The position numbers were made by a program, and so were the translations under genes. A stretch of DNA of 64,000 nt, from positions 16,697-80,696 of the forward strand of contig JASMLK010000080.1 in NCBI GenBank assembly GCA_030748735.1, in the 5' to 3' direction. Source of the DNA: Myxococcota bacterium. Its GTDB lineage: Bacteria > Myxococcota_A > UBA9160 > UBA4427. Below are positions 3,083-50,380 of this stretch, piece after piece. How positions within the stretch are numbered: the first letter of the stretch is position 1; each line of letters opens with the position of its first letter. A model generated the notes under the pieces. That model did not search any database. It was not told where the DNA came from and saw only the letters and a list, made by a program, of their open reading frames with translations.

Positions 3083-3282
3083 TGGGGGCACACTCCTCGA
3101 TTCGGCTCTCCTTTGGTACATCGGTCACGAAAGCGCGATCCATAGCTCCACTTTCCGCTGGGCACCAGATATGCAGTATCAACGCAGCCAGCGCGCACCA
3201 CGCGCGTAGCTCGCGGTACCTGGACATCGCCACACGACTGAAGCGGTAGCGGAAGGACACCCCCCTGCCCTCCGGAAGGCCG

Positions 3283-5460
3283 CTAGAAGCGGAAGGTCCA
3301 GCCGAGCTTCGCGCGGGGTTCGGTCTCGCCGCGTTCCCAGTCCCCGTCGTCGATCACGACACCCTGGTTCAGGACCAGGAAGAACTCGCGACCAGGCTCG
3401 ATGATCCAGCGCAGTCGCGTGTTCACGCCGATCGAGTCGCTGTCCGAGTCGTACTGGGCAAAGGTATTCCACGACACTTCGGGGTTGAACTGGATGTCGA
3501 CGCGGAAGCTCGCGATGTGGACGACGAAGTCGCCGAAATCCAGGTCCACGTCCCTTCGGTCGTAGGCCGCCGTGAAGACCAGATGCTTCGAGGGGCGCCA
3601 CGCCACGCTCGGCTCGACATCGAATCGATCGCCCTCGTAGAAGCCGCTGGCGCTCACGATCAGCCCTACCGACACGGGGCGACCATCGCTCGATGCCATC
3701 TCGACAGACCAGCGATTCCACGAATAGCGGCCGGGTTCGATCGCGACATCGCTGCGCAACGCGAAGGGATCGTCGTGGTCCTCGAAGACCCGGGCGTACG
3801 TCACCTTGAAGGTGTCCCCGGCTGCATTGGCGAGGTCGACGGGGTCGAAGGTGATTTCGGCCGACTCGAAGTCGTCGTGGCTATCGGTGACCAGCGAAGT
3901 CGTCACGCGATGGTCGAGGGTACGCACGAAGCGTTCGGGCCGGTGCCGAAAGCGATAGCTCGTGTAGTAGTTCCGCGTGCCTCCGTTGCGGCTCCTGAAG
4001 CCGAGCGCCGGATTGAAGTTTTCCTGGATGCCTTCGGCAATCACGTACCAGTAGACCCGATCGTTCGGGTAGACGAGCCGTGTCCCCCATGCCCAATCGT
4101 CGGAATCGACACCGCTGGTGTGGCTGTGCTGGGCCCACAGGCGGCCCACCACCGTGCGATTCCCGAGGAAGTCGCTCTTGCGGTAGTTCGCATCGGCTCC
4201 GAGGACCCAGTTTTCGTCGTCGCTGTTGGGGTCGCCGTGGGTGAAGATCAGCCCCGCTGTCGATTCCTCCAACACGTTCACCGACGCCCGGGCGACCGCG
4301 AGGTTCTTCACGCCGATCTTTTCGCGGCGACCGTCCGCGTCCGGCAGGCGTTGGTACTTGTCCGTCACGACGTCGACGAAGCCGACGTTGAGAGGCCCCA
4401 CGCGTCCGGTGACCTTCGTTCCGACCAGGATCGGGATCTCTTCGCCTTGGTTGCTCAGGCCGATGCGCCGAGAGAAGTACGGCAGTGGGTTTCGTTGCAG
4501 TCCGCCGAAGTCGAAGATGCCCGCGTCCTGCAGGAAGAACTGCCGCTTTTCGGGGAAGAACAGCGATGAACGCGTGAGATTGATCTGGCGTTCGTCGACT
4601 TCCGCTTCGCCGAAGTCGGTATTGACCGTGAGTGCGCCCGTAAGCGAGGGCGTGATGCGGTAGAAAGCATCGACACCGGGATCGAAGTCGGTGTCCTTCT
4701 TACCGGTCTGCCCGTCGTCGGTGTGACGCAGCGCGAGTTTGGGCACGACGTCGAGGCCGATCCCCTGTCGGATCCCCACGAGCCCCTCGAGGTGCCCGTT
4801 GCCGTTCATGTTGAAGGCTTCGATCTCGGGGGTGGGACTGGCCCAGCGATCCTCTTCGCCGTTGCGCTTGGTGTAGCGGACGATCTGCATGCCCCAGGTC
4901 GTGCGATCGTCTGCGACCGACAATGTCTGGAACGGGATCGCGACCTCCACGGCCCAACCCTGTGCATCGACACGCGCGTCGGCATACCAGATGCCGTCCC
5001 ACTCGTAGGATTCGTCGCTGTTCTCGATCAGGCCGTCGCGCTTGTTGCCGAGGGGGTTGATCTCGAACTGGTAGCCATTGCGGCGGTCGAGGAAGGTGTC
5101 GAGGCTGATCGTGATGCGATCGTCGCTCGCCATGTCGCCGTCGCGCACCATCTTGCTCGCGATGATGTCGCGCGGATCGCTTTCGTGGGCACGCACCGCG
5201 ATGTAGAGGAAGTCGGCGTCGTAGAGGACCCACACTTCGGTGCGCTGCGACGCTTCGCCGTAGGCCACCGGGATCTTCTGGCGCAGCCCTTCGATTCGCC
5301 CCGCCTGCTGCCACGCGTCTTCGACGATGCGTCCGTCGATCTCGGGAGGGTTTTCCGTGCGAACGGCACGCACGTGAACCGACTCTTCCTGGAACCCGAA
5401 GGCCACGTGGGGGAGCAACCCGCACAGCCCCAGCGCGATCGAAAGACCGCGCATCCACAT
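3283..5460 (-). CDS. Outer-membrane protein, CBM9-like N-domain plus DUF5916-type beta-barrel
   Basis: Signal peptide MWMRGLSIALGLCGLLPHVAFG. DGRIVEDAW..YIAVRAHE resembles a CBM9-like domain. Long alternating beta-strand region ends in ..GWTFRF (C-terminal Phe). Start chosen at the MWMRG Met. Confidence 0.8.
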   Translation of the reverse strand: MWMRGLSIALGLCGLLPHVAFGFQEESVHVRAVRTENPPEIDGRIVEDAWQQAGRIEGLRQKIPVAYGEASQRTEVWVLYDADFLYIAVRAHESDPRDIIASKMVRDGDMASDDRITISLDTFLDRRNGYQFEINPLGNKRDGLIENSDESYEWDGIWYADARVDAQGWAVEVAIPFQTLSVADDRTTWGMQIVRYTKRNGEEDRWASPTPEIEAFNMNGNGHLEGLVGIRQGIGLDVVPKLALRHTDDGQTGKKDTDFDPGVDAFYRITPSLTGALTVNTDFGEAEVDERQINLTRSSLFFPEKRQFFLQDAGIFDFGGLQRNPLPYFSRRIGLSNQGEEIPILVGTKVTGRVGPLNVGFVDVVTDKYQRLPDADGRREKIGVKNLAVARASVNVLEESTAGLIFTHGDPNSDDENWVLGADANYRKSDFLGNRTVVGRLWAQHSHTSGVDSDDWAWGTRLVYPNDRVYWYVIAEGIQENFNPALGFRSRNGGTRNYYTSYRFRHRPERFVRTLDHRVTTSLVTDSHDDFESAEITFDPVDLANAAGDTFKVTYARVFEDHDDPFALRSDVAIEPGRYSWNRWSVEMASSDGRPVSVGLIVSASGFYEGDRFDVEPSVAWRPSKHLVFTAAYDRRDVDLDFGDFVVHIASFRVDIQFNPEVSWNTFAQYDSDSDSIGVNTRLRWIIEPGREFFLVLNQGVVIDDGDWERGETEPRAKLGWTFRF

Positions 5461-5555
5461 CGAGACACGTGCGATGCGCTCGCCGCATCGCGGACCGGAG
5501 GTTGTTCGTCCTGACTGCACCGCGAGCGACGTTAGCAGCCCGTCCTTCGACCGTT

Positions 5556-6791
5556 CTACGCGTCGGATTCACCCGCGCGCCGCCGGCGACGGGCTGCGAG
5601 TTCGAGCTTCATCGACTTCAAGATCAAGCGCGGCAACCCCAGTGGATGCTGGCGCAGCTTGCGAAGCACCAGACGCAGCATATGGCGACGGCCATCGAAG
5701 TTCGCTTCGCGTTGCCCGTGCCCCATGTGCATGCCGAGGGCCGGAACGTCGATCACGTCGAGTGGGAGTTCGAAGCGAAACGTCTCGGTTCGCGGTGGCA
5801 GGCAGATGTCGTCGTTGCAGGCCTGGTAGCGCACGCGGACTTCGACTTCGGCGCTCGTCATGTCGAGGGGGCGCGTCTCGCTCGCAAGAACTCCCGTGGG
5901 ATAGACGGGGACCACAACGTCGAAGTCGCCACTGAAGACCGGTAGCTCCATGCCCATGCTCTCGAGGCGGAGGATTTCTGGCTCTGGCATCTGCGGCGGC
6001 TCGACGGCGAGCCCCGGAGGCCCAGCCACGTCGACCTGCAGCGGGATCATGCCTTCGGGCACCGGTTCGCCGTAGACGTGCATGCCCGCTGAGAGTTCGC
6101 AGCGAACGACGATCTGACGAATGACGCCCTGGCGAAGCGTCGCGCTGCCGCCGTGGACGAAAGCCGTCACGCGAACTTCGTCATCACCACCGCTGGCGCG
6201 CGGGGCGTCGTCTGCGATCACAGCGCGACCGAAGGCAGCGTCGATCAGCACTTCGGGGCTATCGCGCTTCTTGTAGGTGTCGTGAAAGAACTTCGCGACC
6301 ACGACACCCGCTTCGTCGGTCACGTAGACGCCGGGGTACGCAATGCCGTGGAGGAAGGCGTCGTCCTTGCCGACCTGGTCGTTCAGGATGCCGTATCGGC
6401 GGATGACTTCGGAGTCGATGTCGGAGAGCAGCCGAAACGGGATGTCCTGCTTGGCCGCAAACTCGCGGAGCACGGGCTGGTCGTCGTACGAGATTGCGTA
6501 GAGCTCGATCCCCGCGTCTTCGAACTTCGCAAAGGCGTCGCGCAGCTCACCGAGCTGCGTCCAGCACGGGGGTCACCAGACCGCGGAGCGATAGAAGACC
6601 ACCACCGCCTTCGCGTTGCCACGCGTCTTGTGGAAGTCGACGGGAACGCCGTCCTTGTCGGGCAACACGAAATCCGGGAGACGTTCGCCCACCTCGGGGC
6701 CAGTCGGGTGCGCGTTGGGCAGCCCGGAGCGAGCGGGGTGCCCGAGCGGCGCCGGGGCATCGAAACCGTGATGGTCGCGTTCGATCGTCAT
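5556..6791 (-). CDS. Predicted selenoprotein: PRX_like (AhpC/TSA redoxin) domain with W-U-P-P-C active site, fused to a DsbD-alpha-like domain; in-frame TGA at 6573..6575
   Basis: ORFs 6573..6791 and 5556..6473 are in the same frame, separated only by TGA (99 nt = 33 codons to the next listed Met). Read-through gives ..AVVVFYRSAVW-U-PPCWTQLGELRDAFAKFEDAGIELYAISYDD... The C-terminal half carries YQACNDDICLPP, a DsbD-alpha-type motif. GAGGAAGG RBS lies before the ATG at 6791. Confidence 0.75.
6541..6559 (-). promoter_or_regulatory. bSECIS-like hairpin downstream of the UGA at 6573..6575
   Basis: RNA reads UGA + 13 nt + CGCAGCUC-GGU-GAGCUGCG. Perfect 8-bp stem with a G-containing apical loop. 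Confidence 0.6.
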
Positions 6792-6856
6792 CGCCCTTCC
6801 TCGCTGTACACAGGTCGAGCCAGGCGCAACATCGCCCGGGCCTCGTTCCTCAGCGA

Positions 6857-7465
6857 TTACTGCATCGTAATCGCGGTCTGGAACGCCGGACGCTTTTCGA
6901 TGCGTCCGATGTACGCCTTCAGGTTCTTCAACTCGTCCGACACCTGTCCGAGGCGGTTCGCCATGAAGAGCGAATGCCCGAGCATGATGTCGGCGGCCGT
7001 GAAGTCACCCACGAGGTACTCACGCCCTTCGAGGGCTTCGTCGACGGGTGCAACCGCACGGCTCAACAGTCGCTGTGCCTGTCCCAACGCTTCTTCGTTG
7101 CGCCGTTCCGGTGGCAGCAACACCGTGTTGACCATGATGGTGTTGATCGGCGGCATCACCATGCCTTCGCAGTAATGGAACCACTGGAGGTATTCGGGGA
7201 ACTCGGGCGAGTCGATCGCCGGCTTGAGGCCACCATCGCCGTAGCGCGCCATCACATACTCGACGATCGCGCCAGATTCCCAGATACGCACGTCACCGTC
7301 GTCGAGCACGGGAATGCGACCGAGCGGATGCCGCGCGCGATGTTCGTCGGACTTCAGCTCCTTGGGATGGAAGGCCATCTTGTTGATCTCGTAGTCGAGA
7401 CCGAGTTCTTCGAACAGCCAGACGATGCGGCCCGCGCGCGAGTTGGGGGCGAAGTGGAGTTTCAT
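6857..7465 (-). CDS. Glutathione S-transferase
   Basis: MKLHFAPNSRAGRIVWLFEELGL..HPLGRIPVL..ESGAIVEY is a thioredoxin-like GST N-domain, followed by a helical C-domain. Start set at the Met preceded by AAGGA. Confidence 0.85.
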   Translation of the reverse strand: MKLHFAPNSRAGRIVWLFEELGLDYEINKMAFHPKELKSDEHRARHPLGRIPVLDDGDVRIWESGAIVEYVMARYGDGGLKPAIDSPEFPEYLQWFHYCEGMVMPPINTIMVNTVLLPPERRNEEALGQAQRLLSRAVAPVDEALEGREYLVGDFTAADIMLGHSLFMANRLGQVSDELKNLKAYIGRIEKRPAFQTAITMQ

Positions 7466-7498
7466 GAAGAGGGGTCCTTTGTAATGGCGCTCGTGTTG

Positions 7499-7514
7499 TG
7501 GCACTTAGAATGCC
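7499..7514 (+). promoter_or_regulatory. Sigma-54-type -24/-12 promoter candidate upstream of the MFS gene
   Basis: TGGCAC-TTAGA-ATGCC matches TGGCAC-N5-TTGC with correct GG..GC spacing. It lies on the same strand as, and upstream of, the transporter gene. Confidence 0.35.
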
Positions 7515-10534: not shown

Positions 10535-10775
10535 CGCGCTCGACTCCCCGTGCCCGCGTTCGAAGCCGATCGCACGGGCGCGCAGCCGATGTCGTCATCG
10601 CCGAAGCGGGATGCTCCATTTCCCGGGTGAATCACGCAAATGGATCCGAGGCGCGCCCGCGCGACGTGTGGCAGAGTCGTTCCGAGCCACGAAGCCGCGA
10701 CCAAAATCCTGGCCTCGCCGGTTCGCCTTCCACCCTTCCCCATTTCGTCAGCGCCTCGTCAGGGAGAACGACACC

Positions 10776-11198
10776 ATGGCCTCACGCATTCGAGCGACCG
10801 ACGCAATCGGCTCGCGCTTCGCCCTTCTCGCGTTCGCGACCCTCGTGGTTGCCAGCGGCCTCGCCTGCGCGGGTGATGCACCCAAGGAAGTGATCGAACC
10901 CGTCGAGTTGGTTGCCCGCCTCGGGAATGGGACCGCACCGCTCATCCTCGACGTGCGCACGGAAAAGGAATACGCGGCCGGTCACATCCCGGGCGCGGTA
11001 AACATCTCCCACGACGAACTCGCGCAGCGCATCGGCGAACTTCCCGAAGACAAGAGAACCGAAATCGTCGTTCATTGCCAGAGCGGGCGACGCGCGGGAA
11101 TCGCCGAAAGCCTGCTTCGCGAGAACGGCTTCACGCGTGTGCGCGATCTCGCGGGCCATTGGAAGGCATGGAGTAGCAACGAACGCCCGATGGAATAG
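10776..11198 (+). CDS. Rhodanese-domain sulfurtransferase with signal/lipobox-like N-terminus
   Basis: LILDVRTEKEYAAGHIPGAVNI..VVHCQSGRRA is a Cys active-site loop. AGGGAGA RBS precedes the ATG at 10776. The N-terminal hydrophobic leader ends in LACAG. Confidence 0.85.
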   Translation: MASRIRATDAIGSRFALLAFATLVVASGLACAGDAPKEVIEPVELVARLGNGTAPLILDVRTEKEYAAGHIPGAVNISHDELAQRIGELPEDKRTEIVVHCQSGRRAGIAESLLRENGFTRVRDLAGHWKAWSSNERPME

Positions 11199-11225
11199 CG
11201 AGCGAGCGGCACGCCTGCGGGCGAC

Positions 11226-11969
11226 TCACATGAGCGCGCGCACGACCCCGAGACCCGCGAGCAGCATCAGCAGCCCGATCGCGACACCGCGAAAGCTCCG
11301 CCCACTGCTGCGAGCAAAGCGCCGATTGCCCAACCAGACGCCGAGCGCGAGGGGCAGCAAGCTCCATACGAAGTGCTCGATCACACTGCCCGTCACGAGC
11401 CCGCGCCCTCCCGCAACGGCGAGGGCATAGCTGTCACTCGCGATGAAGTACACGGCGAGGGTCGCGCGCAGGGCGCGCGCGCTCGTTCGGTTCCAGAGGA
11501 AGAGCGCGACGAGCGGAAGTCCGCCGATCCCCGCGGCACCGTTGGCTGCCCCCGAGACCAGGCCCGCCCCGAAGACCTGGGCGGCACCCTGCCCGCCCCG
11601 CAACGTTCCACCAGTCGCAATGGCCAGCGCCGCAGCGAGGATCGCGAGGGAGATCACCAGCCTCATCGTGTCCGCGGGCAGGCGATGGAGGAGTTCTACG
11701 CCAAAGGGGGTGGCGATCAGCGCACCCGCGAGGATCCAGCCCAGCTGCCGCCAGTCGACATCGCGCCAGACGCTCGGGAGCAGGTGGATGCCCGCCGCGA
11801 TCTCGAGCATCAAGACGAGGGGCACCACCTGCGCCGGGGGCCAGGCGAGCGAGAGGCTTCCCACCACGAAGGCCGAAAAGCCGAAACCCGCATAGCCCCG
11901 CACGACAGCGGCGAAGAAGACCGCCGCCAGCGCGAGCCCCAGCGGCAACATGCCGGTCTCTCCGGACAT
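11226..11969 (-). CDS. TSUP (TauE/SafE) family anion permease
   Basis: 247 aa, with ~8 hydrophobic helices. The G-rich motifs VRGYAGFGFS and GAANGAAGIGG are typical of TauE/SafE. Confidence 0.85.
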   Translation of the reverse strand: MSGETGMLPLGLALAAVFFAAVVRGYAGFGFSAFVVGSLSLAWPPAQVVPLVLMLEIAAGIHLLPSVWRDVDWRQLGWILAGALIATPFGVELLHRLPADTMRLVISLAILAAALAIATGGTLRGGQGAAQVFGAGLVSGAANGAAGIGGLPLVALFLWNRTSARALRATLAVYFIASDSYALAVAGGRGLVTGSVIEHFVWSLLPLALGVWLGNRRFARSSGRSFRGVAIGLLMLLAGLGVVRALM

Positions 11970-44143: not shown

Positions 44144-44325
44144 TAGCCCGGATTATTCATGAACATCCGTAGCGAGACGGTGCAGATTCGTGCTCTGGCA
44201 AGAGAAATCGGCGTTCCGCCGCGCAGACGTGGTTCACCCCACGTCGAGCAGCGGGACGCCGATTTCTCTTGCCAGAGTGCGGAGATGTGCCGTCGCAGTA
44301 GGATGTTCATGAATAATGCGGGCTA
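44144..44325. repeat. Long imperfect inverted repeat (~75-nt arms, ~31-nt spacer with its own hairpin); MITE-like element or structured 5' leader
   Basis: Left arm 44144..44219 and right arm 44251..44325. Outer 25 nt TAGCCCGGATTATTCATGAACATCC / GGATGTTCATGAATAATGCGGGCTA differ by 1 mismatch. An inner 21 bp, CTCTGGCAAGAGAAATCGGCG, is perfect. The central hairpin is GACGTGG-TTCACC-CCACGTC (44226..44245). Confidence 0.7.
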
Positions 44326-44391
44326 GCAGCCCCGTGTTGCCCGCTGGGCTAGCTTGCCGCGCGCCCACCGCGCCCGGAGGTTCGATCCAGC

Positions 44392-45582
44392 ATGACGAGC
44401 TTCGACTACGCCGCTAGCCCCGACCCCATCCGCAACGACCTGGCCGATGCCCATCGCCGGCAGTGGCAACGCATCGCCAACACAGGCACCTGGCTCACCG
44501 GCGCCCAGCGGGTCGCCGTGGCGGAGGAAACGCGATGGGCGCGCGACTGCGCGCTCTGCCGCGAGCGCAAACGGGCGCTCTCGCCCTTCGCAGTCGACGG
44601 CGAACACGATCATGCGGGCGTTCTTCCGGCACCGATGGTCGACGAAATCCACCGTGTCACGACCGACGCGGCGCGCCTTTCGCAGAAGTGGTTCGAGTCG
44701 TTGCTCGAGCAGGGCCTCAGCGCCGACGCATACGTCGAGGCTCTCGGCGTCGCGGTCTGCACGATCAGCATCGACGGCTTTCATCACGCGATGGGACTGC
44801 CCGTCGAACCCCTTCCCGAACCGAACGACGGCGAGCCGACACGCGAGCGCCCCGACGATCTCGTCGAAGGTGAAGCCTGGGTGCCGATGCGCGCACCGAA
44901 GGGCCTCAGTGCAGAACTCGGCCTTCCGGCCGGACAGGCGCCCTACGTGATTCGCGCGCTCTCACTCGTCCCCGCCGAAGTCCACGCCTGGGATGACCTC
45001 AGCGCCGCCCAGTACCTGAACAAGCAACAGATGATGCGCTTCGAAAAGGTCCGCGCGATCGACCGCTCACAGATCGAACTCGTGGCCGGCCGCGTCAGCG
45101 CACTCAACGAGTGTTTCTACTGAACGACTTCCCACGCGGTGATGCTCCGTGCGAGCATCGAGTATTCGGGAAGTGGCGGGCAGCTCGGTGGCATCACAGA
45201 GGGTTCCAAGGCGGGTGACGCGGGCATCGAGCATGGCGAACGACTTACGGCCTTCGCGGACGCAGCGGTTTCGGGTGACCCGGCAGCGCTGGCTACTGCG
45301 CGGGACGCCCTGCGCGAAGCGGCCGGGTCCGCGGTCGTCGTCGACGCCGCCGGCGTGATCGGCAACTTCCAGCGCATGGTGCGCATTGCAGACGGCTCGG
45401 GGATCCCCCTCGACACCATGGTCGACACGATGTCGTCCGACATCCGCGAAGACCTCGGCCTCGAGGGCTTCGAGAGCCGCAGGCTCGCCGAGCAGGGTGC
45501 GCTCGCGAAACTGTTTGCGCCGGTTGCGCGCGGGGCTGCAATGCTGGGACTGCGTATCGCGGGCCGGCGCGGACGTCGCTAG
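44392..45582 (+). CDS. Predicted selenoprotein: AhpD/carboxymuconolactone-decarboxylase (CMD)-core protein, in-frame TGA at 45121..45123 (C-x-x-U-x-x-x-H)
   Basis: ORFs 44392..45123 and 45139..45582 share a frame (747 nt offset). Read-through gives ..VSALNECFY-U-TTSHAVMLRASIEY.., which matches the AhpD C-x-x-C-x-x-x-H spacing with the His located after the TGA. GGAGG RBS present. Confidence 0.75.
45141..45159 (+). promoter_or_regulatory. bSECIS-like hairpin downstream of the UGA at 45121
   Basis: UGA + 17 nt + GAUGCUC-CGUGC-GAGCAUC. 7-bp stem with a 5-nt loop whose second base is G. Confidence 0.6.
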
Positions 45583-45606
45583 CGGATAGAGAGGAGAAGC
45601 AACAAC

Positions 45607-46377
45607 GTGGATCGCTTCAGCGTCGCAGGCAAACACATCGCCATCACCGGTGCGTCGTCGGGCTTCGGGCACCACTTCGCTGGTGTGCTCGCGCGCGAAG
45701 GCGCCCGGGTAAGCCTCGGGGCGCGGCGCACGGAAAAGATCGAAGCGCGTGTCGACGGGCTGCGCGGCGAGGGTCACGCGGCTTTCGGTGCGGCCCTCGA
45801 CGTCTGCGACCGCGCGAGCATGGAAGCCTTCTTCACGACCATCGAAGCCGAGTTCGGCCCGGTCGACGTCTTGATCAACAATGCCGGGATCGAAGCCGGC
45901 GCCAAGACCTATACGATGATCGACGAAGACGACTGGGACGCGGTCATCGACACGAACCTCAAGAGCGCATGGCTCATGAGCAAGCTCTACACCGAGCGCG
46001 TCGTCGCCAACGAGCAGCGCGAAGGCAATATCGTGATGATCTCGTCGATCACCGACACGCGGACCATCAAGGGACAGTTCCCGTATGCGATCTCGAAAGG
46101 CGGCGTGACCCGCATGACCGAAGTCCTCGCCCTCGAAGCCCCGCGCTATGGCATTCGCGTGAACGCCATTGCGCCGGGCTACATCCTCACCGACGTGAGC
46201 CGCCTGGTCGTCGAGGGTGACAACGCCCCCGACTTCGTGAAAGGCATCCCGATGCGCCGCTTCGGAAAGTTCGAAGACCTCGACGGGCCGCTCCTGCTGC
46301 TCGCTTCGGACGCGTCGCGCTGGATGAACGGGTCGATCGTGGTGGTCGACGGCGGGCACGTCTGCGCTTCTCTCTAG
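45607..46377 (+). CDS. Short-chain dehydrogenase/reductase (SDR)
   Basis: ITGASSGFGHHFA (TGxxxGxG), NNAG, and S..YAISK catalytic residues. GAGGAGA RBS precedes the GTG start. Confidence 0.9.
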   Translation: MDRFSVAGKHIAITGASSGFGHHFAGVLAREGARVSLGARRTEKIEARVDGLRGEGHAAFGAALDVCDRASMEAFFTTIEAEFGPVDVLINNAGIEAGAKTYTMIDEDDWDAVIDTNLKSAWLMSKLYTERVVANEQREGNIVMISSITDTRTIKGQFPYAISKGGVTRMTEVLALEAPRYGIRVNAIAPGYILTDVSRLVVEGDNAPDFVKGIPMRRFGKFEDLDGPLLLLASDASRWMNGSIVVVDGGHVCASL

Positions 46378-46379
46378 CG

Positions 46380-46401
46380 GGCGAGCGCCGCGGTGCTCGC
46401 C
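46380..46401. terminator. Hairpin between the convergent SDR and AhpD-like genes
   Basis: GGCGAGC-GCCGCGGT-GCTCGCC, a 7-bp perfect stem. No U-tract. Confidence 0.35.
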
Positions 46402-46415
46402 ACACCATCGTGCCG

Positions 46416-47519
46416 CTATCCGACGCCCAGAACGCGCGCGGGGGCCTTTGCGGGGTCGCCGCGTTCGATCTCGGTGTTGGCTGCTCCGCCGAACGCATTG
46501 AGCCCCAGGCGTTCGCGAAAGTCGGCCGAGCCGTGGAGCGTGCCCTCGTCGAGCGGGATCCCGCTCGAGTCGGCGGTGCGAACGAGCCCGTTGAAGATGC
46601 CCACGATGCCGCAGGCTTCCACGAAGCCCGCTTCACCCAGCGTCTTTCGCACGGCCTCACGTGCGGGGTCCATGTCGTCGTTGCCTCGCGTGACGGCTTC
46701 GGCGAAACGCACGAGGGCTTCGCCGTGTTCGATGTCGGAGGCACCCTCCCCGCCCACGGTGGCGTCGAGATTCACTTCCTGGCCAAGCTTGTCGCTGCTC
46801 GCACGGAGCAGACCCACATGGGAGGTCGTTCAGTAGAAGCATTCGTTGACGGCGCTGACCCGGGCCGCGATGAGTTCGGCTTGCGGGCGATCGAGCGGCC
46901 CTCCCCACTCCATGTCGTAGAAGCCGCCCGAGCCGTTGCTGTACATCGCCATCACGTTGGCGAAGAACAGTTGGTTCGCCGACGGTACGAGCGATAGCGC
47001 TCGCGCAACGTTGGGCCCCGTGAAGGGATCGATCATGGGCACGTGGGCGCCTGCGTCGGTTGCTTCGGCGAGTCGGCCGCCGTCGGGTTCACCGGGCTGC
47101 GGGTCCGGCAGCGGTTCGTGCGCGCGCCCCAGGGCTTCGCTGTACGCATCGATCGCACTCATGCAGGCCACGATCGAGATCAGTTCGACGTACGCGCCGT
47201 CACCCAGGGCTGCGATCTTCTTCGCCGCCCACTCGGAATCGATCTTGTGCGCATCGGCCGCGATCGTGCGTGCGGCGTCGACCGCGACTTCGGAGAGACG
47301 GCCTTCGGCGTCCGGAAGACCTTCGCGCAACCACGACGGGTCACCCCGCTTCGCCCGCGTGGCCCGCGCCTGGCGCGCGATCTCGAGGCGTTGTTCGCCC
47401 GTGAAGTACGAACCCGCATTCGCGATCTGCTGCCAACTGGTGCGGTGGACCTGCTGGATCGTGTCGCGTACCGCGAACCCGTCACGGTCGTAGGCGAAGG
47501 TCGAATCGAAGGACGTCAT
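46416..47519 (-). CDS. Predicted selenoprotein: second AhpD/CMD-core protein, in-frame TGA at 46830..46832
   Basis: ORFs 46830..47519 and 46416..46817 are in frame (12 nt apart). Read-through gives ..VSAVNECFY-U-TTSHVGLLRASSDKL... Paralog of 44392..45582, with the same MTSFD N-terminus and NECFYUTTSH core. GGAGG RBS present. Confidence 0.75.
46795..46811 (-). promoter_or_regulatory. bSECIS-like hairpin downstream of the UGA at 46830..46832
   Basis: UGA + 18 nt + CUGCUC-CGUGC-GAGCAG. The loop is identical to the paralog's. One stem pair differs by a compensatory A-U to C-G change. Confidence 0.6.
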
Positions 47520-47581
47520 GCAGTGCCTCCAGGCGCGTCAGGCGAAAACGTAGCGCGCGGTCCGGCACTCGATCGATGGAA

Positions 47582-48229
47582 TCAGATCGGGCCGCGGCCC
47601 TTCCGCCCGCCGAGGATCCAACGAATCATTTCGAGGTGTTGGCCACCCCAGAAGAGTTCGTCGTCGATCCAATAGACGGGCGCCCCTACCGCCATCCCGC
47701 GATCGAAGAGTTCTTCTCCGAGTGCGGCCAAAGTCGCGGGGCCGCGATCTCGCTGCCACGCTTCGAAACCGTCGGCTTCGAGGCCGAGTGCTGCGACCTT
47801 TTTCGCAACGGCCTCCTCGTCCGAGGGATCCAATTCCAGCGCCCAGTACGCACGGAAGATCTCGGCGAGATAATCTGCGACGCACCCGGGGGCGTGTTCG
47901 CGCACCCAGAGCCAACCCACGTTGGCCGCTGCTGGATCGGGGTCACGATAGTAGTCGCGCAACACCAACCCCTGAGCGGACGCGTAGGTTTCGATTTCTC
48001 GCGCGATCTCGCTCGCACGAGAGCGGCGGTGGCGAACGCCGCGATCATCGTCCGCACCCGGCTGCGAAGGCGCCTTCAAGGATGGAACGCTTACGGGCAA
48101 CCAGTTGATGTCGATCCCCGCTTCTCGCCCGAGCTCGATCGTCGGGTGCAATGCGAGATACGTCAGTGGTTGACGCAGGTCGAGGAGTACCGTGAGGCGC
48201 GCTTCGTCGATCGCAGAAGAAAAGCTCAT
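47582..48229 (-). CDS. DsbA-like thioredoxin-fold protein, 2-hydroxychromene-2-carboxylate isomerase / GST-kappa family
   Basis: ..LLDLRQPLTYLAL.. N-terminal motif, with Gln where the family usually has the catalytic Ser. C-terminal GAPVYWIDDELFWGGQHL. Start overlaps the upstream stop (ATGA). Confidence 0.8.
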   Translation of the reverse strand: MSFSSAIDEARLTVLLDLRQPLTYLALHPTIELGREAGIDINWLPVSVPSLKAPSQPGADDDRGVRHRRSRASEIAREIETYASAQGLVLRDYYRDPDPAAANVGWLWVREHAPGCVADYLAEIFRAYWALELDPSDEEAVAKKVAALGLEADGFEAWQRDRGPATLAALGEELFDRGMAVGAPVYWIDDELFWGGQHLEMIRWILGGRKGRGPI

Positions 48230-48918
48230 GCCGCGAACGACCGATTCATCATCAGCGGAGCCGGGCCCTCCTTCCCGCTCAACAGCCAGGCGATGCGGGG
48301 GAGATGCTCGCGACCAAACCAGGCTTCGTCCTCGACGAGAAAGGTCGGCACACCGAACACGCCGCCATCGAAGGCGCGCGTGTTGACTTCGTCATGCAAC
48401 GCCCGCCCTTCGCCTGATGCGTAACTTTCGAAGCCAATCGTTTCGAGCCCGGCCTTCTTCAACACGCTTTCGAACACCGCGACGTCCTCGATGTCGAGTT
48501 CGCGGTTCCAGAACGGCGGATACACGGTGTCGAGAAAGCGATCGTACGCCTCAGGTCCCTGCGCCTTCGCCCACAGCATCGCAATACCGGCGAGACTCGA
48601 ATCCCAGATCTTGATCGTCCCCCGCACGGTCTTCCCGGTGAGATTCGCGTAGCGACGGGCGTCCATGTACGCGTACTTCACGCCCTTCCATTGCTGCGGT
48701 GAGCGCTTGCTCTTTGCGACCTTCCCCTTCTTGTCGAGCTTTGCGCTCCCGAGATAGCTCGGGATGTCGAGTGTGAAGGGGCGCCAGTCGACCTCGACGC
48801 CGAGCGCACGCGCCATGTCGCGCGTCGGCTCGATCGCGAGGTAGGCGTACGGGCTCTTGAGGTCGATGTAGACCGCGAGGGCGTGATCGCCGCGCAGCTC
48901 ACTGAATGCGTTCGACAT
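48226..48918 (-). CDS. DsbA-like thioredoxin-fold protein, 2-hydroxychromene-2-carboxylate isomerase / GST-kappa family
   Basis: VYIDLKSPYAYLA (the SPY motif carrying the Ser) and GVFGVPTFLVEDEAWFGREHL are family signatures. Confidence 0.85.
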   Translation of the reverse strand: MSNAFSELRGDHALAVYIDLKSPYAYLAIEPTRDMARALGVEVDWRPFTLDIPSYLGSAKLDKKGKVAKSKRSPQQWKGVKYAYMDARRYANLTGKTVRGTIKIWDSSLAGIAMLWAKAQGPEAYDRFLDTVYPPFWNRELDIEDVAVFESVLKKAGLETIGFESYASGEGRALHDEVNTRAFDGGVFGVPTFLVEDEAWFGREHLPRIAWLLSGKEGPAPLMMNRSFAA

Positions 48919-48927
48919 GGTCGTGCT

Positions 48928-49350
48928 TCAGCCCTCCCGCGGAGGCAAGGTCTGTTGCGTGGCGATGAGTCGCGAATCGTCGAGAGCCGCTGTTCGATGA
49001 ACCGCGATGGTCAGGTATTCCTCACTCGTCGTCATGTCGATGAAATGCTGGAGCGAGGGATATTCCACGATGACCGCGTCGTCCCAGGCTTCGGCCTCCG
49101 GCGCAATCGGAGCGGAGAGCACGCTACCGGCCCAAATCGGGCGACCGCCCTGCTTGGCGACCAACGGCAGCACCCCATGTCCATAGCGGTCGTAGGCCTC
49201 GCGCCCCGAGCACGGTTCGTGCCCCGAGCCTGCCTCGTACGCGGCTTCGTCGCGGTAGCGCAGCAGATTGATCATCACGAGCGGCCGCGCATCTTTCGCG
49301 TTGGCGAGCAGTTCATCCATCTGGTCCTGGCGGGGTTCGACGGCGCCCAT
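48928..49350 (-). CDS. DUF1330 domain protein
   Basis: PLVMINLLRYRDEAAY.. and DDAVIVEYPSLQHFIDM parallel the DUF1330 gene at 12749..13192. Confidence 0.8.
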   Translation of the reverse strand: MGAVEPRQDQMDELLANAKDARPLVMINLLRYRDEAAYEAGSGHEPCSGREAYDRYGHGVLPLVAKQGGRPIWAGSVLSAPIAPEAEAWDDAVIVEYPSLQHFIDMTTSEEYLTIAVHRTAALDDSRLIATQQTLPPREG

Positions 49351-49436
49351 ATTCGCTTTCTCCCTGGTTTCTTCAGCGGCGATTCAGGGTAACAATCCGC
49401 GGGCGCAAGGCCCGCAAACCCGGAGAGATCACGCGC

Positions 49437-49719
49437 ATGGTTCGAATCGTCCTGATCGTCGTTGGCGTGCTGCTCCTTGTCGTGCTCGGCTATGCCTACT
49501 ACACCAACGCGGTCGCGAACCCGCGGGCGTTGCAGGACATCCGCGACGCCCCGAACGGGGGTCGCGCGGATCGCGTGATGGGCCTGACGCTCCCCGACGG
49601 CCGCACGATCCCCGTGCACGAAGGACGTCTTCTCGCGCCTGCGCCCGAATGCCGTGCCGGGCTTCGGCACGCTCGTCGAGATTCGCTTCGACGCCGGGCC
49701 CGGGACGCTGGCGCCCTGA
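49437..49719 (+). CDS. Small N-terminally membrane-anchored protein, apparently frameshifted near 49615
   Basis: MVRIVLIVVGVLLLVVLGYAYY.. looks like a TM anchor. After ..GRTIPV the protein-like reading (DVFSRLRPNAVPGFGTLVEIRFDAGPGTLAP*) continues in the +1 frame to TGA 49717..49719. The frame-0 continuation is junk that overlaps the next gene. Confidence 0.3.
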
Positions 49720-49740
49720 GGAACGCTCGGGGAGCGTTCC
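49720..49740 (+). terminator. Perfect 9-bp hairpin immediately after the small ORF
   Basis: GGAACGCTC-GGG-GAGCGTTCC. It is followed by GAAAAGG, with no U-tract. Confidence 0.35.
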
Positions 49741-49816
49741 GAAAAGGGGTGGCTACAGTCCGTCCCGTTCTTCGATCTCGCGCCCGGGGTAGCGAAGACA
49801 AGAAAGGGGACCACCC

Positions 49817-50380
49817 ATGGCTTCCACGGACGACGTCATCGAACGACTCGCCACCATCGAACTCGAAGACACCGACGGCAAGATCAACCGCCTCGAATCC
49901 TATTGGCGCGACCAGACGATCGTTCTCGCCTTCGTGCGGCACTTCGGCTGACTCTTCTGCCGCGAGCAAGTCGCGCAGTTGCGCGACCACATGGATGAGA
50001 TTCGTGACCTCGGCGCCGACGTCGTCGTCGTGGGCAACGGTAACCTCGACTTCGCGCAGGCCTTCCGCGAGGACCTCGACTTCGACGGCCCCCTGTTGAT
50101 CGACCCCGAACTCGAAGCCTATCGCGCGGCATCACTTCGGCGCGGACACAAGGAGATCCTGTCGCCTCGCATGCCGCTCAACGCACTGCGATCGATGCGC
50201 AAGGGCTTTCGCCAGACCTCGGTGCAGGGCGACGCGTTCCAGCTCGGCGGCGTCTTCGTGATCCAGACCGGCGGGGAACTCGCCTATCGTTACGCGAGTC
50301 GCGAAGCCGGCGATCATCCGCCGATCGAAGACGTTCTCGACGCGATCGTGGCCGACCCCGCGGAGTTCGAAGTCGGCTAG
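49817..50380 (+). CDS. Predicted selenoprotein: AhpC/TSA_2 (PRXL2/peroxiredoxin-like 2) family, in-frame TGA at 49949..49951 (U-x-x-C)
   Basis: ATG at 49817 follows AAAGGGGA. 44 codons later TGA occurs, and ORF 49979..50380 is in the same frame. Read-through gives ..IVLAFVRHFG-U-LFCREQVAQLRDHMDEI.., matching the family motif F.RH.GC..CRE. Confidence 0.75.
49970..49987 (+). promoter_or_regulatory. bSECIS-like hairpin downstream of the UGA at 49949
   Basis: UGA + 18 nt + GUCGCGC-AGUU-GCGCGAC. 7-bp perfect stem with G in the loop. Confidence 0.6.

What the first reader, a model, noticed from the sequence alone, without database searches (positions are those of the whole stretch)
44144..50380. 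Selenocysteine-dense thiol/peroxide redox island: three UGA-recoded oxidoreductases within 6 kb
Gene order in the island:
- AhpD-like Sec gene (44392-45582, +)
- SDR (45607-46377, +)
- second AhpD-like Sec gene (46416-47519, -)
- two DsbA/GST-kappa-fold genes (47582-48229 and 48226-48918, -, overlapping by ATGA)
- DUF1330 (48928-49350, -)
- a small TM ORF
- PRXL2-type Sec gene (49817-50380, +)

Each Sec call rests on a TGA sitting on a catalytic Cys position, with the rest of the motif encoded after the stop, plus a downstream hairpin. Individual AhpD-like and Prx-like selenoprotein families have been predicted computationally before. I do not know of a described module that clusters three of them with thiol-transferase-fold partners. 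Ordinary annotation would split every one of these genes and hide the module.

Hypothesis: a selenium-dependent hydroperoxide/electrophile detoxification relay. The PRXL2 Sec would act as the peroxidatic centre, the AhpD-like Sec proteins as reductants, the DsbA/GSTK-like proteins as thiol transferases, and the SDR as the NAD(P)H entry point.
Basis: partly seen in the sequence, partly recalled or inferred. Interest (0 to 1): 0.9.

Follow-up and report, generated by a model that had tools for sequence, protein, structure and literature searches.

The report
Three known-family selenoprotein genes side by side
Three genes in this 6-kb stretch of a marine Myxococcota genome do read a UGA stop codon as selenocysteine, but each belongs to an already catalogued selenoprotein family, and their side-by-side arrangement is seen only in the closest relatives, so it is not a conserved new pathway.

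Summary
Observation confirmed. In-frame TGAs lie at 45121-45123 (+), 46830-46832 (-) and 49949-49951 (+). The motifs are ECFY-U-TTSH (twice) and RHFG-U-LFC.

- **Conservation across the stop.** In 163 of 164 homologous sites the codon is TGA, and the downstream peptide stays conserved in frame.
- **Cys homologues.** Full-length homologues carry Cys at the same position (CFYC, FGCLFC).
- **SECIS hairpin.** A hairpin 17-21 nt after the UGA shows covariation. Its codons show extreme synonymous-codon constraint.

The families are already curated. Both AhpD-like genes match NCBIfam NF041238 [quoted passage not shown]. The third matches NF040769 "SelL-related redox protein". All trace back to the 2005-2008 marine selenoproteome surveys.

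The "module" reading is not supported.

- The gene order recurs only in an identical contig and two close relatives, where non-redox flanking genes are syntenic too. One of those relatives lacks the third Sec gene.
- In about 75 other genomes the neighbours of the AhpD-like gene are heterogeneous.
- Sec-type SelL-related orthologues sit elsewhere.
- One weak lead remains: the pair of HCCA-isomerase/GST-kappa-like genes also sits next to an AhpD2-type gene in one distant lineage, fused into a single ORF.

No Sec machinery lies in the window. A fourth Sec gene lies at 5556-6791 (-).

The parts
44392..45582 (+). AhpD-related selenoprotein gene 1 (NF041238, CFYUT type). Sec codon at 45121-45123. 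Carries an extra N-terminal CxxC (C53, C56).
   Evidence: Translation. NCBIfam NF041238 at 473.8 bits against a cutoff of 175, profile 1-357/357. TGA conserved in homologues. Cys homologues exist. C53 and C56 are invariant in alignment A1.
45140..45160 (+). SECIS-like apical hairpin of gene 1: UGAUGCUC-CGUGC-GAGCAUCG. It starts 17 nt after the UGA; a lower stem spans about 45127-45174.
   Evidence: Folds. Covariation on 150 sequences: 87.7% of cells paired against 25-49% in the slid controls; pair 22-38 is CG 75, AU 39, UG 6, GC 3, UA 2. Synonymous-codon constraint.
45607..46377 (+). Classical short-chain dehydrogenase/reductase, 24 nt downstream of gene 1; probably co-transcribed with it.
   Evidence: Pfam adh_short_C2, 7e-52. 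Below every NCBIfam equivalog cutoff. The pairing is kept only in L004 and L164.
46416..47519 (-). AhpD-related selenoprotein gene 2, an old paralogue (34% identity to gene 1) that lacks the N-terminal CxxC. Sec codon at 46830-46832.
   Evidence: Translation. NF041238 at 311.8 bits against 175. All 120 listed homologues stop at the same point. TGA conserved in metagenome loci.
46793..46813 (-). SECIS-like hairpin of gene 2: CUGCUC-CGUGC-GAGCAG, six pairs here. Relative to gene 1 the A-U pair is replaced by C-G.
47582..48229 (-). HCCA-isomerase/GST-kappa-like DSBA-fold protein 'a'. No CxxC, and the Ser motif is degenerate (DLRQPLTY).
   Evidence: Pfam DSBA, 6.9e-10. Closest solved structures 3fz5 and 2imd.
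48226..48918 (-). HCCA-isomerase/GST-kappa-like DSBA-fold protein 'b'. It keeps the D-x-x-S-P-Y motif (YIDLKSPYAY). It overlaps 'a' by ATGA.
   Evidence: Pfam DSBA, 1.5e-17. Alignment to 2imd and 3fz5. Orthologues of a and b are fused into one 525-aa ORF in L108 and L112.
48928..49350 (-). DUF1330 protein, first gene of the minus-strand unit DUF1330 - b - a - AhpD2.
   Evidence: Pfam DUF1330, 2.6e-8. Absent from L004 and fragmented in L164.
49437..49700 (+). Doubtful small membrane ORF.
   Evidence: Coding-like GC pattern, and residues 19-61 are conserved in L004. The ORF has no stop until 50099 and was not called by the gene callers.
49817..50380 (+). SelL-related (PRXL2/AhpC-TSA_2) selenoprotein gene with a UxxC motif. 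Sec codon at 49949-49951.
   Evidence: Translation. NF040769 at 138.3 bits against 120, and Pfam AhpC-TSA_2 at 1.4e-17. Cys homologues read FGCLFC.
49970..49987 (+). SECIS-like hairpin of the SelL-related gene: GUCGCGC-AGUU-GCGCGAC. It starts 18 nt after the UGA.
   Evidence: Conserved in L004, L167 and L168; a G-C to A-U compensatory change occurs in L169.
44144..44325 (.). 182-nt near-perfect palindrome between the enoyl-CoA hydratase gene and gene 1. Not part of the selenoprotein system; probably an inserted repeat element.
   Evidence: Inverted repeats I2 and I5. Free energy -142 kcal/mol, z = -19.4. Unique in the window. The same intergenic space is only 95-113 nt in L004 and L164.

Best explanation
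The region holds three independent, ordinary bacterial selenoprotein genes of already catalogued families, in a marine Myxococcota MAG: two paralogous AhpD-related 'CFYUT' proteins and one SelL-related Trx-fold protein.

**Recoding.** In each gene a UGA is read as selenocysteine. A stem-loop 17-21 nt downstream, inside the coding sequence, would recruit SelB and Sec-tRNA(Sec). That last step is inferred.

**Chemistry (inferred from the families).**
- In the AhpD-related proteins, Sec replaces the second Cys of the E-C-x-x-C-x-x-x-H AhpD motif. It would cycle through a selenenylsulfide with the Cys three residues upstream.
- In the SelL-related protein, Sec replaces the first Cys of a thioredoxin-like CxxC.

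**Organisation.** There are three transcription units:
- AhpD1-SDR (+)
- DUF1330 - GSTK-like b - GSTK-like a - AhpD2 (-)
- the SelL-related gene (+)

**Why they are adjacent.** The proximity is a lineage-specific juxtaposition of redox and detoxification genes in a Sec-rich genome. It is kept in close relatives by general synteny. It is not a conserved relay.
For: - **Motifs and frames:**
- **Family membership:** curated family hits above cutoff that span the TGA.
- **Conservation across the stop:** 163 of 164 homologous sites are TGA, with in-frame conservation after it.
- **Truncated database proteins:** database homologues of the AhpD-like genes are mostly truncated at exactly this codon (all 120 listed in each; most of the top 150).
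- **Cys forms:** Cys-containing full-length homologues exist.
- **Hairpin covariation:** for the AhpD type, for the SelL-related type.
- **Codon constraint:** hairpin codons are nearly fixed. Leu is CTC in 147 of 152, Ala is GCG in 104 of 104, and Ser is AGC/AGT in 140 of 140. Conserved residues upstream use 4-6 synonymous codons; Ser at -8 is TCN in 134 of 140.
- **Fold:** an AlphaFold model of a Cys homologue (pLDDT 89.6) matches AhpD-core structures 2prr, 3c1l and 6k40.
- **Fourth Sec gene in the same window:**
- **Against a conserved module:**
- **Prior description:** PMC1088965, PMC2398784, PMC13188914.
Against: - No selA, selB or selD gene (Pfam sweep) and no tRNA-Sec lies in the 64-kb window. 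The rest of the genome could not be read.
- No Rfam SECIS model matches.
- Single-sequence hairpin energies are unremarkable.
- Three Sec genes in 6 kb is denser than a random scatter of a few dozen selenoprotein genes would usually give.
- The GSTK-like pair recurs next to an AhpD2-type gene in one distant lineage (L108, L112). Some functional linkage inside the minus-strand unit therefore cannot be excluded.
Confidence: 0.8

Rival explanations
1. The whole island is one selenium-dependent hydroperoxide/electrophile detoxification relay: SDR (NAD(P)H entry), then the AhpD-like Sec proteins (reductants), then the PRXL2 Sec protein (peroxidatic centre), with the GSTK-like proteins acting as thiol transferases.
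For: - All components are redox or detoxification-type folds lying within 6 kb.
- AhpD1 and the SDR are 24 nt apart.
- Some relatives fuse the SelL-related domain to an SDR domain (P0400, P0404, P0412).
- The order is kept in L004 and largely in L164.
- Neighbours of AhpD-related genes elsewhere are mildly enriched in reductases and GSTs: aldo/keto reductase 5 of 75, GST 3 of 75, SDR 4 of about 150.
Against: - The order is not conserved beyond relatives that share overall synteny.
- L164 lacks the SelL-related gene.
- AhpD2 orthologues at 62-68% identity and Sec-type SelL-related orthologues lie in unrelated contexts.
- The island is three transcription units on two strands.
- The SDR fused to SelL-related proteins is only 26-36% identical to the island's SDR over 90-125 residues.
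- The SelL-related motif is UxxC (thioredoxin-like), not a peroxiredoxin peroxidatic site.
- The GSTK-like proteins lack CxxC.
Confidence: 0.08
2. A smaller real unit. Only the minus-strand operon (DUF1330 - GSTK-like b - GSTK-like a - AhpD2) is a functional unit. In it a glutathione-dependent kappa-class isomerase/transferase heterodimer works together with a Sec-containing AhpD-related redox protein.
For: - Tight spacing and an ATGA overlap on one strand.
- The pair plus AhpD2 is kept in L004 and L164.
- In L108 and L112 (59% GC, AhpD2-type at 49% identity) the two GSTK-like genes are fused into one 525-aa ORF. That ORF is divergently adjacent to the AhpD2-type Sec gene, with a DUF1330 gene 6 kb away.
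Against: - Only 2 of 29 AhpD2-type loci with at least 1.5 kb of flank show it, and those two are 92% identical to each other, so they count as one lineage.
- It is absent from L165 and L166.
- The orientation differs: co-directional here, divergent there.
Confidence: 0.12
3. The TGAs are genuine stops. On this view each 'gene' is two separate ORFs or a pseudogene, or the stops are assembly errors.
For: - Gene callers and the GenBank record split the genes.
- One homologue, in the cultured Geodermatophilus chilensis (L083), has TAG at this codon.
Against: - The same TGA occurs in more than 160 independent assemblies across phyla, with the frame and peptide conserved across it.
- Cys sits at the aligned position in full-length homologues.
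- The catalytic motif is split by the stop.
- The RNA hairpin covaries and its codons are constrained.
Confidence: 0.02

Closest known systems
NCBIfam NF041238 'AhpD_rel_CFYUT', alkylhydroperoxidase-related (seleno)protein. This is 'hypothetical protein 1' of the Sargasso Sea selenoproteome (Zhang et al. 2005, PMC1088965; equated in PMC13188914).
   Same: Both AhpD-like genes score far above the curated cutoff over the whole profile. Both carry the eponymous C-F-Y-U-T motif, and a hairpin follows the UGA.
   Different: Nothing essential; these are new members. The two paralogues differ from each other: gene 1 has an extra invariant N-terminal CxxC that gene 2 lacks.
Mycobacterium tuberculosis AhpD, the AhpC-AhpD-DlaT-Lpd peroxidase relay (named from my own knowledge of the literature).
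   Same: AhpD/CMD all-helical fold. The catalytic E-C-x-x-C-x-x-x-H constellation is present, with Sec at the second Cys position.
   Different: The protein here is about 390 aa, with a roughly 200-residue N-terminal extension that has no Pfam hit. There is no adjacent ahpC and no lipoamide partner genes. The partner and substrate are unknown. Other CMD-fold enzymes do unrelated chemistry, for example the debrominase Bmp8, which appears among the fold hits.
SelL / PRXL2 (AhpC-TSA_2) family; NCBIfam NF040769 'SelL-related redox protein'; 'Prx-like' UxxC selenoproteins of the GOS survey (PMC2398784).
   Same: Thioredoxin-fold Prx-like protein with Sec as the first residue of a CxxC-type motif. 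Close relatives are the Sec form; more distant ones are Cys (FGCLFC).
   Different: It has a single Sec (UxxC), not the UxxU reported for animal SelL (own knowledge). In this genome it stands alone, whereas some relatives fuse it to an SDR domain.
2-hydroxychromene-2-carboxylate isomerase (NahD) / kappa-class GST (PDB 2imd, 3fz5).
   Same: DSBA-like fold without CxxC. Protein b keeps the D-x-x-S-P-Y/F motif aligned with NahD.
   Different: Sequence similarity to the solved NahD-type structures is weak (E 1e-5 to 1e-11). Protein a has lost the Ser motif. There is no naphthalene-pathway context.
Described selenoprotein gene clusters: grdA-grdB, prdB-prdC, frhA-frhD-hdrA(-glpC), the SAO and Tso operons, and the neighbouring Prx-like/AhpD-like and Prx/SelW pairs seen on GOS reads (PMC13188914 section 'Selenoprotein operon'; PMC2398784).
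   Same: Several selenoprotein genes lie within a few kb, including a Prx-like plus AhpD-like combination.
   Different: Here the genes are on different strands and in different units, and the arrangement is not conserved outside one narrow clade. It does not meet the standard of a recurrent operon.

Membership tests
NF041238 AhpD_rel_CFYUT (seleno)protein | Whole-protein HMM score above the curated cutoff (175 bits), with full-length profile coverage. | tested here: met
   Gene 1 scores 473.8 bits over profile 1-357/357. Gene 2 scores 311.8 bits over profile 1-355/357.
NF041238 AhpD_rel_CFYUT (seleno)protein | C-F-Y-U-T motif, with U encoded by TGA and aligned to Cys in non-Sec members. | tested here: met
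   ECFY-U-TTSH in both genes. Cys homologues read CFYC or CYYC.
NF040769 SelL-related redox protein | HMM score above the cutoff (120 bits), spanning the redox motif. | tested here: met
   138.3 bits over residues 12-176, profile 4-172/173. The margin is modest.
NF040769 SelL-related redox protein | U/CxxC redox motif at the start of the first helix of a Trx fold. | tested here: met
   RHFG-U-LFC here against RHFG-C-LFC in P0398, P0419 and P0444. The position within the fold was not modelled.
Bacterial selenoprotein gene (generic) | In-frame UGA with conserved coding sequence on both sides, and a Sec/Cys pair in homologues. | tested here: met
Bacterial selenoprotein gene (generic) | SECIS stem-loop shortly downstream of the UGA, with G in the apical loop. 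| tested here: met
   The AhpD type has loop CGUGC, with covariation and codon constraint. The SelL-related type has loop AGUU and one compensatory change among 5 sequences. There is no Rfam match, and single-sequence z-scores are weak.
Bacterial selenoprotein gene (generic) | selA, selB, selC (tRNA-Sec) and selD present in the genome. | not testable with these tools
   None is in the 64-kb window. Presence is implied by four Sec candidate genes in the window.
Bacterial selenoprotein gene (generic) | Selenium actually incorporated into the protein. | not testable with these tools
   Needs 75Se labelling or mass spectrometry.
AhpC/AhpD-type peroxidase system | AhpD catalytic motif E...C-x-x-C-x-x-x-H on a CMD fold. 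| tested here: met
   E-C-F-Y-U-T-T-S-H. CMD and ahpD_dom hits. The fold matches 2prr and 6k40.
AhpC/AhpD-type peroxidase system | Genetic linkage to an ahpC-type peroxiredoxin partner. | tested here: not met
   No AhpC lies adjacent. Among about 150 neighbours of orthologues, AhpC-TSA appears in only 2. The SelL-related gene is in a separate unit and is not linked in other genomes.
Conserved multi-selenoprotein operon or module | Recurrence of the gene neighbourhood in independent lineages. | tested here: not met
   The full order is found only in L001 (identical) and L004. It is partial in L164, all within background synteny. It is absent from about 75 other genomes and from L165-L169.
HCCA isomerase / GST kappa | DSBA-like fold without CxxC, with an N-terminal Ser-Pro motif. 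| tested here: met
   Protein b has KSPYAY aligned with LSPFSY of 2imd. Protein a has RQPLTY, so the Ser is lost and the feature is not met for a. Glutathione dependence was not tested.

The most novel reading that the evidence does not exclude
The minus-strand unit (DUF1330, a heterodimeric or fused pair of kappa-class GST/HCCA-isomerase-like proteins, and an AhpD-related selenoprotein) is a real, undescribed glutathione- and selenium-dependent detoxification or isomerisation system. It recurs in at least two distant marine lineages. In this clade it has been brought next to a second AhpD-related selenoprotein-SDR pair.
Probability: 0.12. Interest if true: 0.5.

Novelty: new member of a known kind. 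Interest (0 to 1): 0.25.

Why it matters
**Practical value.** This is an annotation fix. In this MAG's public record at least one of these genes is a truncated 'hypothetical protein'. Four selenoprotein genes in the window should be joined across UGA.

**Clean evidence for a SECIS.** The comparative data give an unusually clear demonstration for the NF041238 family. A covarying SECIS is embedded in the codons for L-L-R-A-S, with near-total synonymous-codon fixation across phyla. The family is overwhelmingly the Sec form: 163 of 164 sites.

**Biology.** No member of this abundant marine family has a known substrate or partner. The neighbourhood survey here shows there is no constant partner. 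That argues against reading function from this one island. The only lead worth a wider test is the occasional linkage to a kappa-GST-like pair.

Tried and rejected
- **Rfam.** Searches at gathering and at permissive thresholds found no SECIS family. The only 'hit' was a plant miRNA model on the 182-nt palindrome, which is spurious.
- **tRNA scan.** No tRNA-Sec in the window.
- **Pfam sweep.** About 40 further window ORFs gave no SelA, SelB or SelD.
- **Promoter and terminator scan.** Nothing above the shuffled expectation.
- **Hairpin free energy against shuffles.** Not significant on its own. I therefore relied on covariation and codon usage.
- **Recent tandem duplication as an explanation for the two AhpD genes.** Rejected. 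The paralogues are only 34% identical, and both subtypes are widespread in separate lineages.
- **Reassigned genetic code.** Rejected, because many window genes end in TGA.
- **Haft & Tolstoy 2025 (PMC12013261).** Not held in the library.
- **Covariance model of the SECIS.** Not built. The element lies in conserved coding sequence, so matches would not be independent evidence.

Full report
**What is there.**
The window is 65% GC. Its closest matches are marine Myxococcota MAGs. The AhpD2 N-terminal ORF is 100% identical to a GenBank protein 'MAG: hypothetical protein QF570_11190 [Myxococcota bacterium]'. The nearest genome locus is Myxococcota PL23a_bin.25 (L004, 82% identity).

ORF listing and translation confirm every coordinate in the finding.

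- Gene 1 (44392-45582, +) reads ...RVSALNECFY-TGA-TTSHAVMLRAS...
- Gene 2 (46416-47519, -) reads ...RVSAVNECFY-TGA-TTSHVGLLRAS...
- Gene 3 (49817-50380, +) reads ...AFVRHFG-TGA-LFCREQVAQLRD...

With U replaced by C, Pfam gives these calls:

- CMD across the TGA in both AhpD-like genes (weak).
- A classical SDR.
- Two DSBA-fold proteins.
- DUF1330.
- AhpC-TSA_2 for gene 3.

**Are the TGAs selenocysteine codons?**
Four independent lines say yes.

1. **Truncated database proteins.**
   - All 120 listed database homologues of gene 1 are 234-265 aa. They cover 61% of the joined query, so they end at this codon.
   - All 120 listed for gene 2 likewise stop there.
   - An exhaustive HMMER search shows the same for most of the top 150.

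2. **Conservation across the stop.**
   - I collected 80 genome loci and 80 metagenome loci.
   - They span Myxococcota, Binatia, Alpha-, Beta- and Gammaproteobacteria and Actinomycetota.
   - Among them, 163 of 164 sites have TGA here. The next 10-12 residues (T-T-S/A-H-x-x-x-L-R-A/E-S) are conserved in frame.
   - The exception is TAG in Geodermatophilus chilensis.

3. **Cys homologues.**
   - Full-length homologues of 339-418 aa carry Cys at this position (NECFYC..., NDCYYC..., NQCFYC...).
   - For gene 3, close relatives are truncated. More distant full-length ones read RHFG-C-LFC, and one of these is annotated 'SelL-related redox protein'.

4. **The hairpin.**
   - It begins 17-21 nt after the UGA.
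   - On a gapless 150-sequence alignment of the AhpD-type site, the 8-bp stem is 87.7% paired, against 25-49% when the partner column is slid.
   - The covariation score is 0.275, against at most 0.144 in the slid controls and 0.176 in shuffles (0 of 500 shuffles reach it).
   - Pair 22-38 occurs as CG 75, AU 39, UG 6, GC 3 and UA 2.
   - Codon usage gives an internal control.
     - Conserved Leu, Arg, Ser and Ala residues upstream of the UGA use 4-6 synonymous codons. Ser at -8 is TCN in 134 of 140.
     - The hairpin codons are nearly fixed. Leu+8 is CTC in 147 of 152. Arg+9 is only CGT or CGG. Ala+10 is GCG in 104 of 104. Ser+11 is AGC/AGT in 140 of 140.
   - For gene 3, GUCGCGC-AGUU-GCGCGAC is kept in L004, L167 and L168. 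It becomes GUCACGC...GCGUGAC in L169.

Two caveats apply. The hairpins alone are not unusual for this GC content (z = -2.0, -0.5, -0.6). No Rfam SECIS model matches. Many other genes in the window end in TGA, so the code itself is standard.

**What the proteins are.**
NCBIfam places both AhpD-like proteins in NF041238 'AhpD_rel_CFYUT, alkylhydroperoxidase-related (seleno)protein', an equivalog model. They score 473.8 and 311.8 bits against a cutoff of 175. Gene 3 falls in NF040769 'SelL-related redox protein' at 138.3 bits against 120.

A 2026 review equates NF041238 with 'hypothetical protein 1' of the 2005 Sargasso Sea selenoproteome. The GOS survey lists AhpD-like (CxxU) and Prx-like (UxxC) families among the most abundant marine selenoproteins.

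An AlphaFold model of a Cys homologue (pLDDT 89.6, pTM 0.91) matches AhpD-core structures 2prr, 3c1l and 6k40 over about 195 residues, roughly half its length. I assume this is the C-terminal half. The N-terminal part is also helical and has no Pfam hit. In the gene 1 subtype it carries an invariant CxxC, which gene 2 lacks.

The motif E-C-x-x-U-x-x-x-H corresponds to the AhpD catalytic constellation, with Sec at the second Cys (from established knowledge of M. tuberculosis AhpD). The two DSBA-fold proteins are closest to 2-hydroxychromene-2-carboxylate isomerases (3fz5, 2imd). They have no CxxC. Protein b keeps the S-P-Y motif and protein a does not.

**Is the island a module?**
I tested recurrence from each Sec gene outward.

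- **From gene 1.**
  - Of 83 loci, only L001 (identical) and L004 contain the partners.
  - L004 is collinear with the window from the thiolase gene to the ion-channel gene, so the island's conservation there is just background synteny.
  - Immediate upstream and downstream neighbours in about 75 genomes fall into 63 and 74 Pfam families.
  - The commonest are Amidohydro_2 (3), aldo/keto reductase (5), GST (3) and SDR (2 + 2).

- **From gene 2.**
  - L164 (72% identity) keeps NaH-MBL...DSBA-DSBA-AhpD2-SDR-AhpD1-ECH. It has other genes in place of the SelL-related gene, and a broken DUF1330.
  - L165 (68%) and L166 (62%) have AhpD2 alone.
  - Of 29 AhpD2-type metagenome loci with usable flanks, only L108 and L112 carry the DSBA pair.
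  - Those two are 92% identical to each other, so they represent one lineage.
  - There the pair is fused into one 525-aa ORF and is divergent from the Sec gene.

- **From gene 3.** Three Sec-type orthologues (L167-L169) have unrelated neighbours.

The island is also three transcription units on two strands. The relay hypothesis therefore lacks comparative support. The only sub-unit with any independent recurrence is GSTK-like pair + AhpD2.

Literature already records adjacent Prx-like/AhpD-like selenoprotein genes and larger selenoprotein operons. Clustering as such is not new.

**Sec machinery.**
No tRNA lies in the window. A Pfam sweep of about 40 further ORFs found no SelA, SelB or SelD. 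This cannot be settled without the rest of the genome.

A fourth candidate Sec gene lies at 5556-6791 (-). It is an AhpC-TSA + DsbD_N fusion with the motif W-U-P-P-C. A possible CGCAGCUC-GGU-GAGCUGCG hairpin follows (read by eye; the computed fold prefers another structure). This gene supports the view that the organism decodes Sec.

**Verdict.**
The interpretation as a novel selenium-dependent relay module is not. These are new members of known, curated selenoprotein families. They sit in a lineage-specific arrangement in a Sec-rich marine Myxococcota genome.

Noticed in passing
window 5556-6791 (-), TGA at 6573-6575: A fourth candidate selenoprotein gene. It is a peroxiredoxin-like AhpC-TSA/Redoxin domain fused to a DsbD_N domain, with the motif FYRSAVW-U-PPCW. 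Read by eye, a possible CGCAGCUC-GGU-GAGCUGCG hairpin follows the UGA; the computed fold prefers another structure. A GST gene (6857-7504, -) lies immediately upstream.
   Followed up: partly
window 44144-44325: A 182-nt near-perfect palindrome (nested arms of 25 and 47 nt; free energy -142 kcal/mol, z = -19.4) between the enoyl-CoA hydratase gene and AhpD-like gene 1. It is unique in the window. It is absent from the 95-113-nt equivalent spacers of L004 and L164, so it is probably an inserted MITE/REP-like element.
   Followed up: partly
L169 about 3192-4781 (second TGA at about 4278-4280): In a metagenomic relative the SelL-related Sec protein is fused to an SDR domain. The SDR part contains a second in-frame TGA (...ARVV-TGA-VSSGGMY...) at about the Asn of the SDR N-x-S-S motif, and the reading frame continues for 161 more residues. 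This could be a second Sec, a read-through, or an error.
   Followed up: no
L108 6206-7783 (-) and L112 about 5404-6963 (-): The two HCCA-isomerase/GST-kappa-like genes of the island are fused into a single 525-aa ORF. It is divergently adjacent to an AhpD2-type Sec gene, with a DUF1330 gene about 6 kb away. This suggests the two proteins act as one unit.
   Followed up: partly
L083 10595-10597 (Geodermatophilus chilensis B12): This is the only homologous site of 164 with TAG instead of TGA at the Sec position (NNCFY-TAG-LIAH). It may be a decayed copy in a genome that does not use Sec.
   Followed up: no
L037 10001-10738 and 11122-11850; L034 747-1487 and 11030-11485 (-): Other genomes also carry two NF041238 Sec genes close together, in tandem in a Rhodospirillaceae MAG. 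Paired copies are therefore not unique to this island.
   Followed up: no
window 45056-45161 vs 46792-46897: The two AhpD-related paralogues are only 34% identical as proteins. Even so, they share a 106-nt stretch of 78% nucleotide identity centred on the Sec codon and hairpin (inverted repeat I1). This fits an RNA-level constraint, or possibly gene conversion.
   Followed up: no
window 49437-50099 (+): The 'small TM ORF' has a coding-like N-terminal stretch of about 60-90 codons, conserved in L004. It has no stop until 50099 and runs out of frame over the SelL-related gene. Gene callers did not call it.
   Followed up: partly
window 10611-11969: A rhodanese-domain gene (10611-11198, +) lies next to a TauE/SafE sulfite-exporter gene (11226-11969, -). 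This is a sulfur-handling pair in the same window as the selenoprotein genes.
   Followed up: no
family-wide (loci L004-L166): The NF041238 family is overwhelmingly the Sec form: 163 of 164 sampled sites. Only about 16 of the top 150 cluster representatives are full-length Cys forms, and one has lost both redox residues (SFYG).
   Followed up: partly
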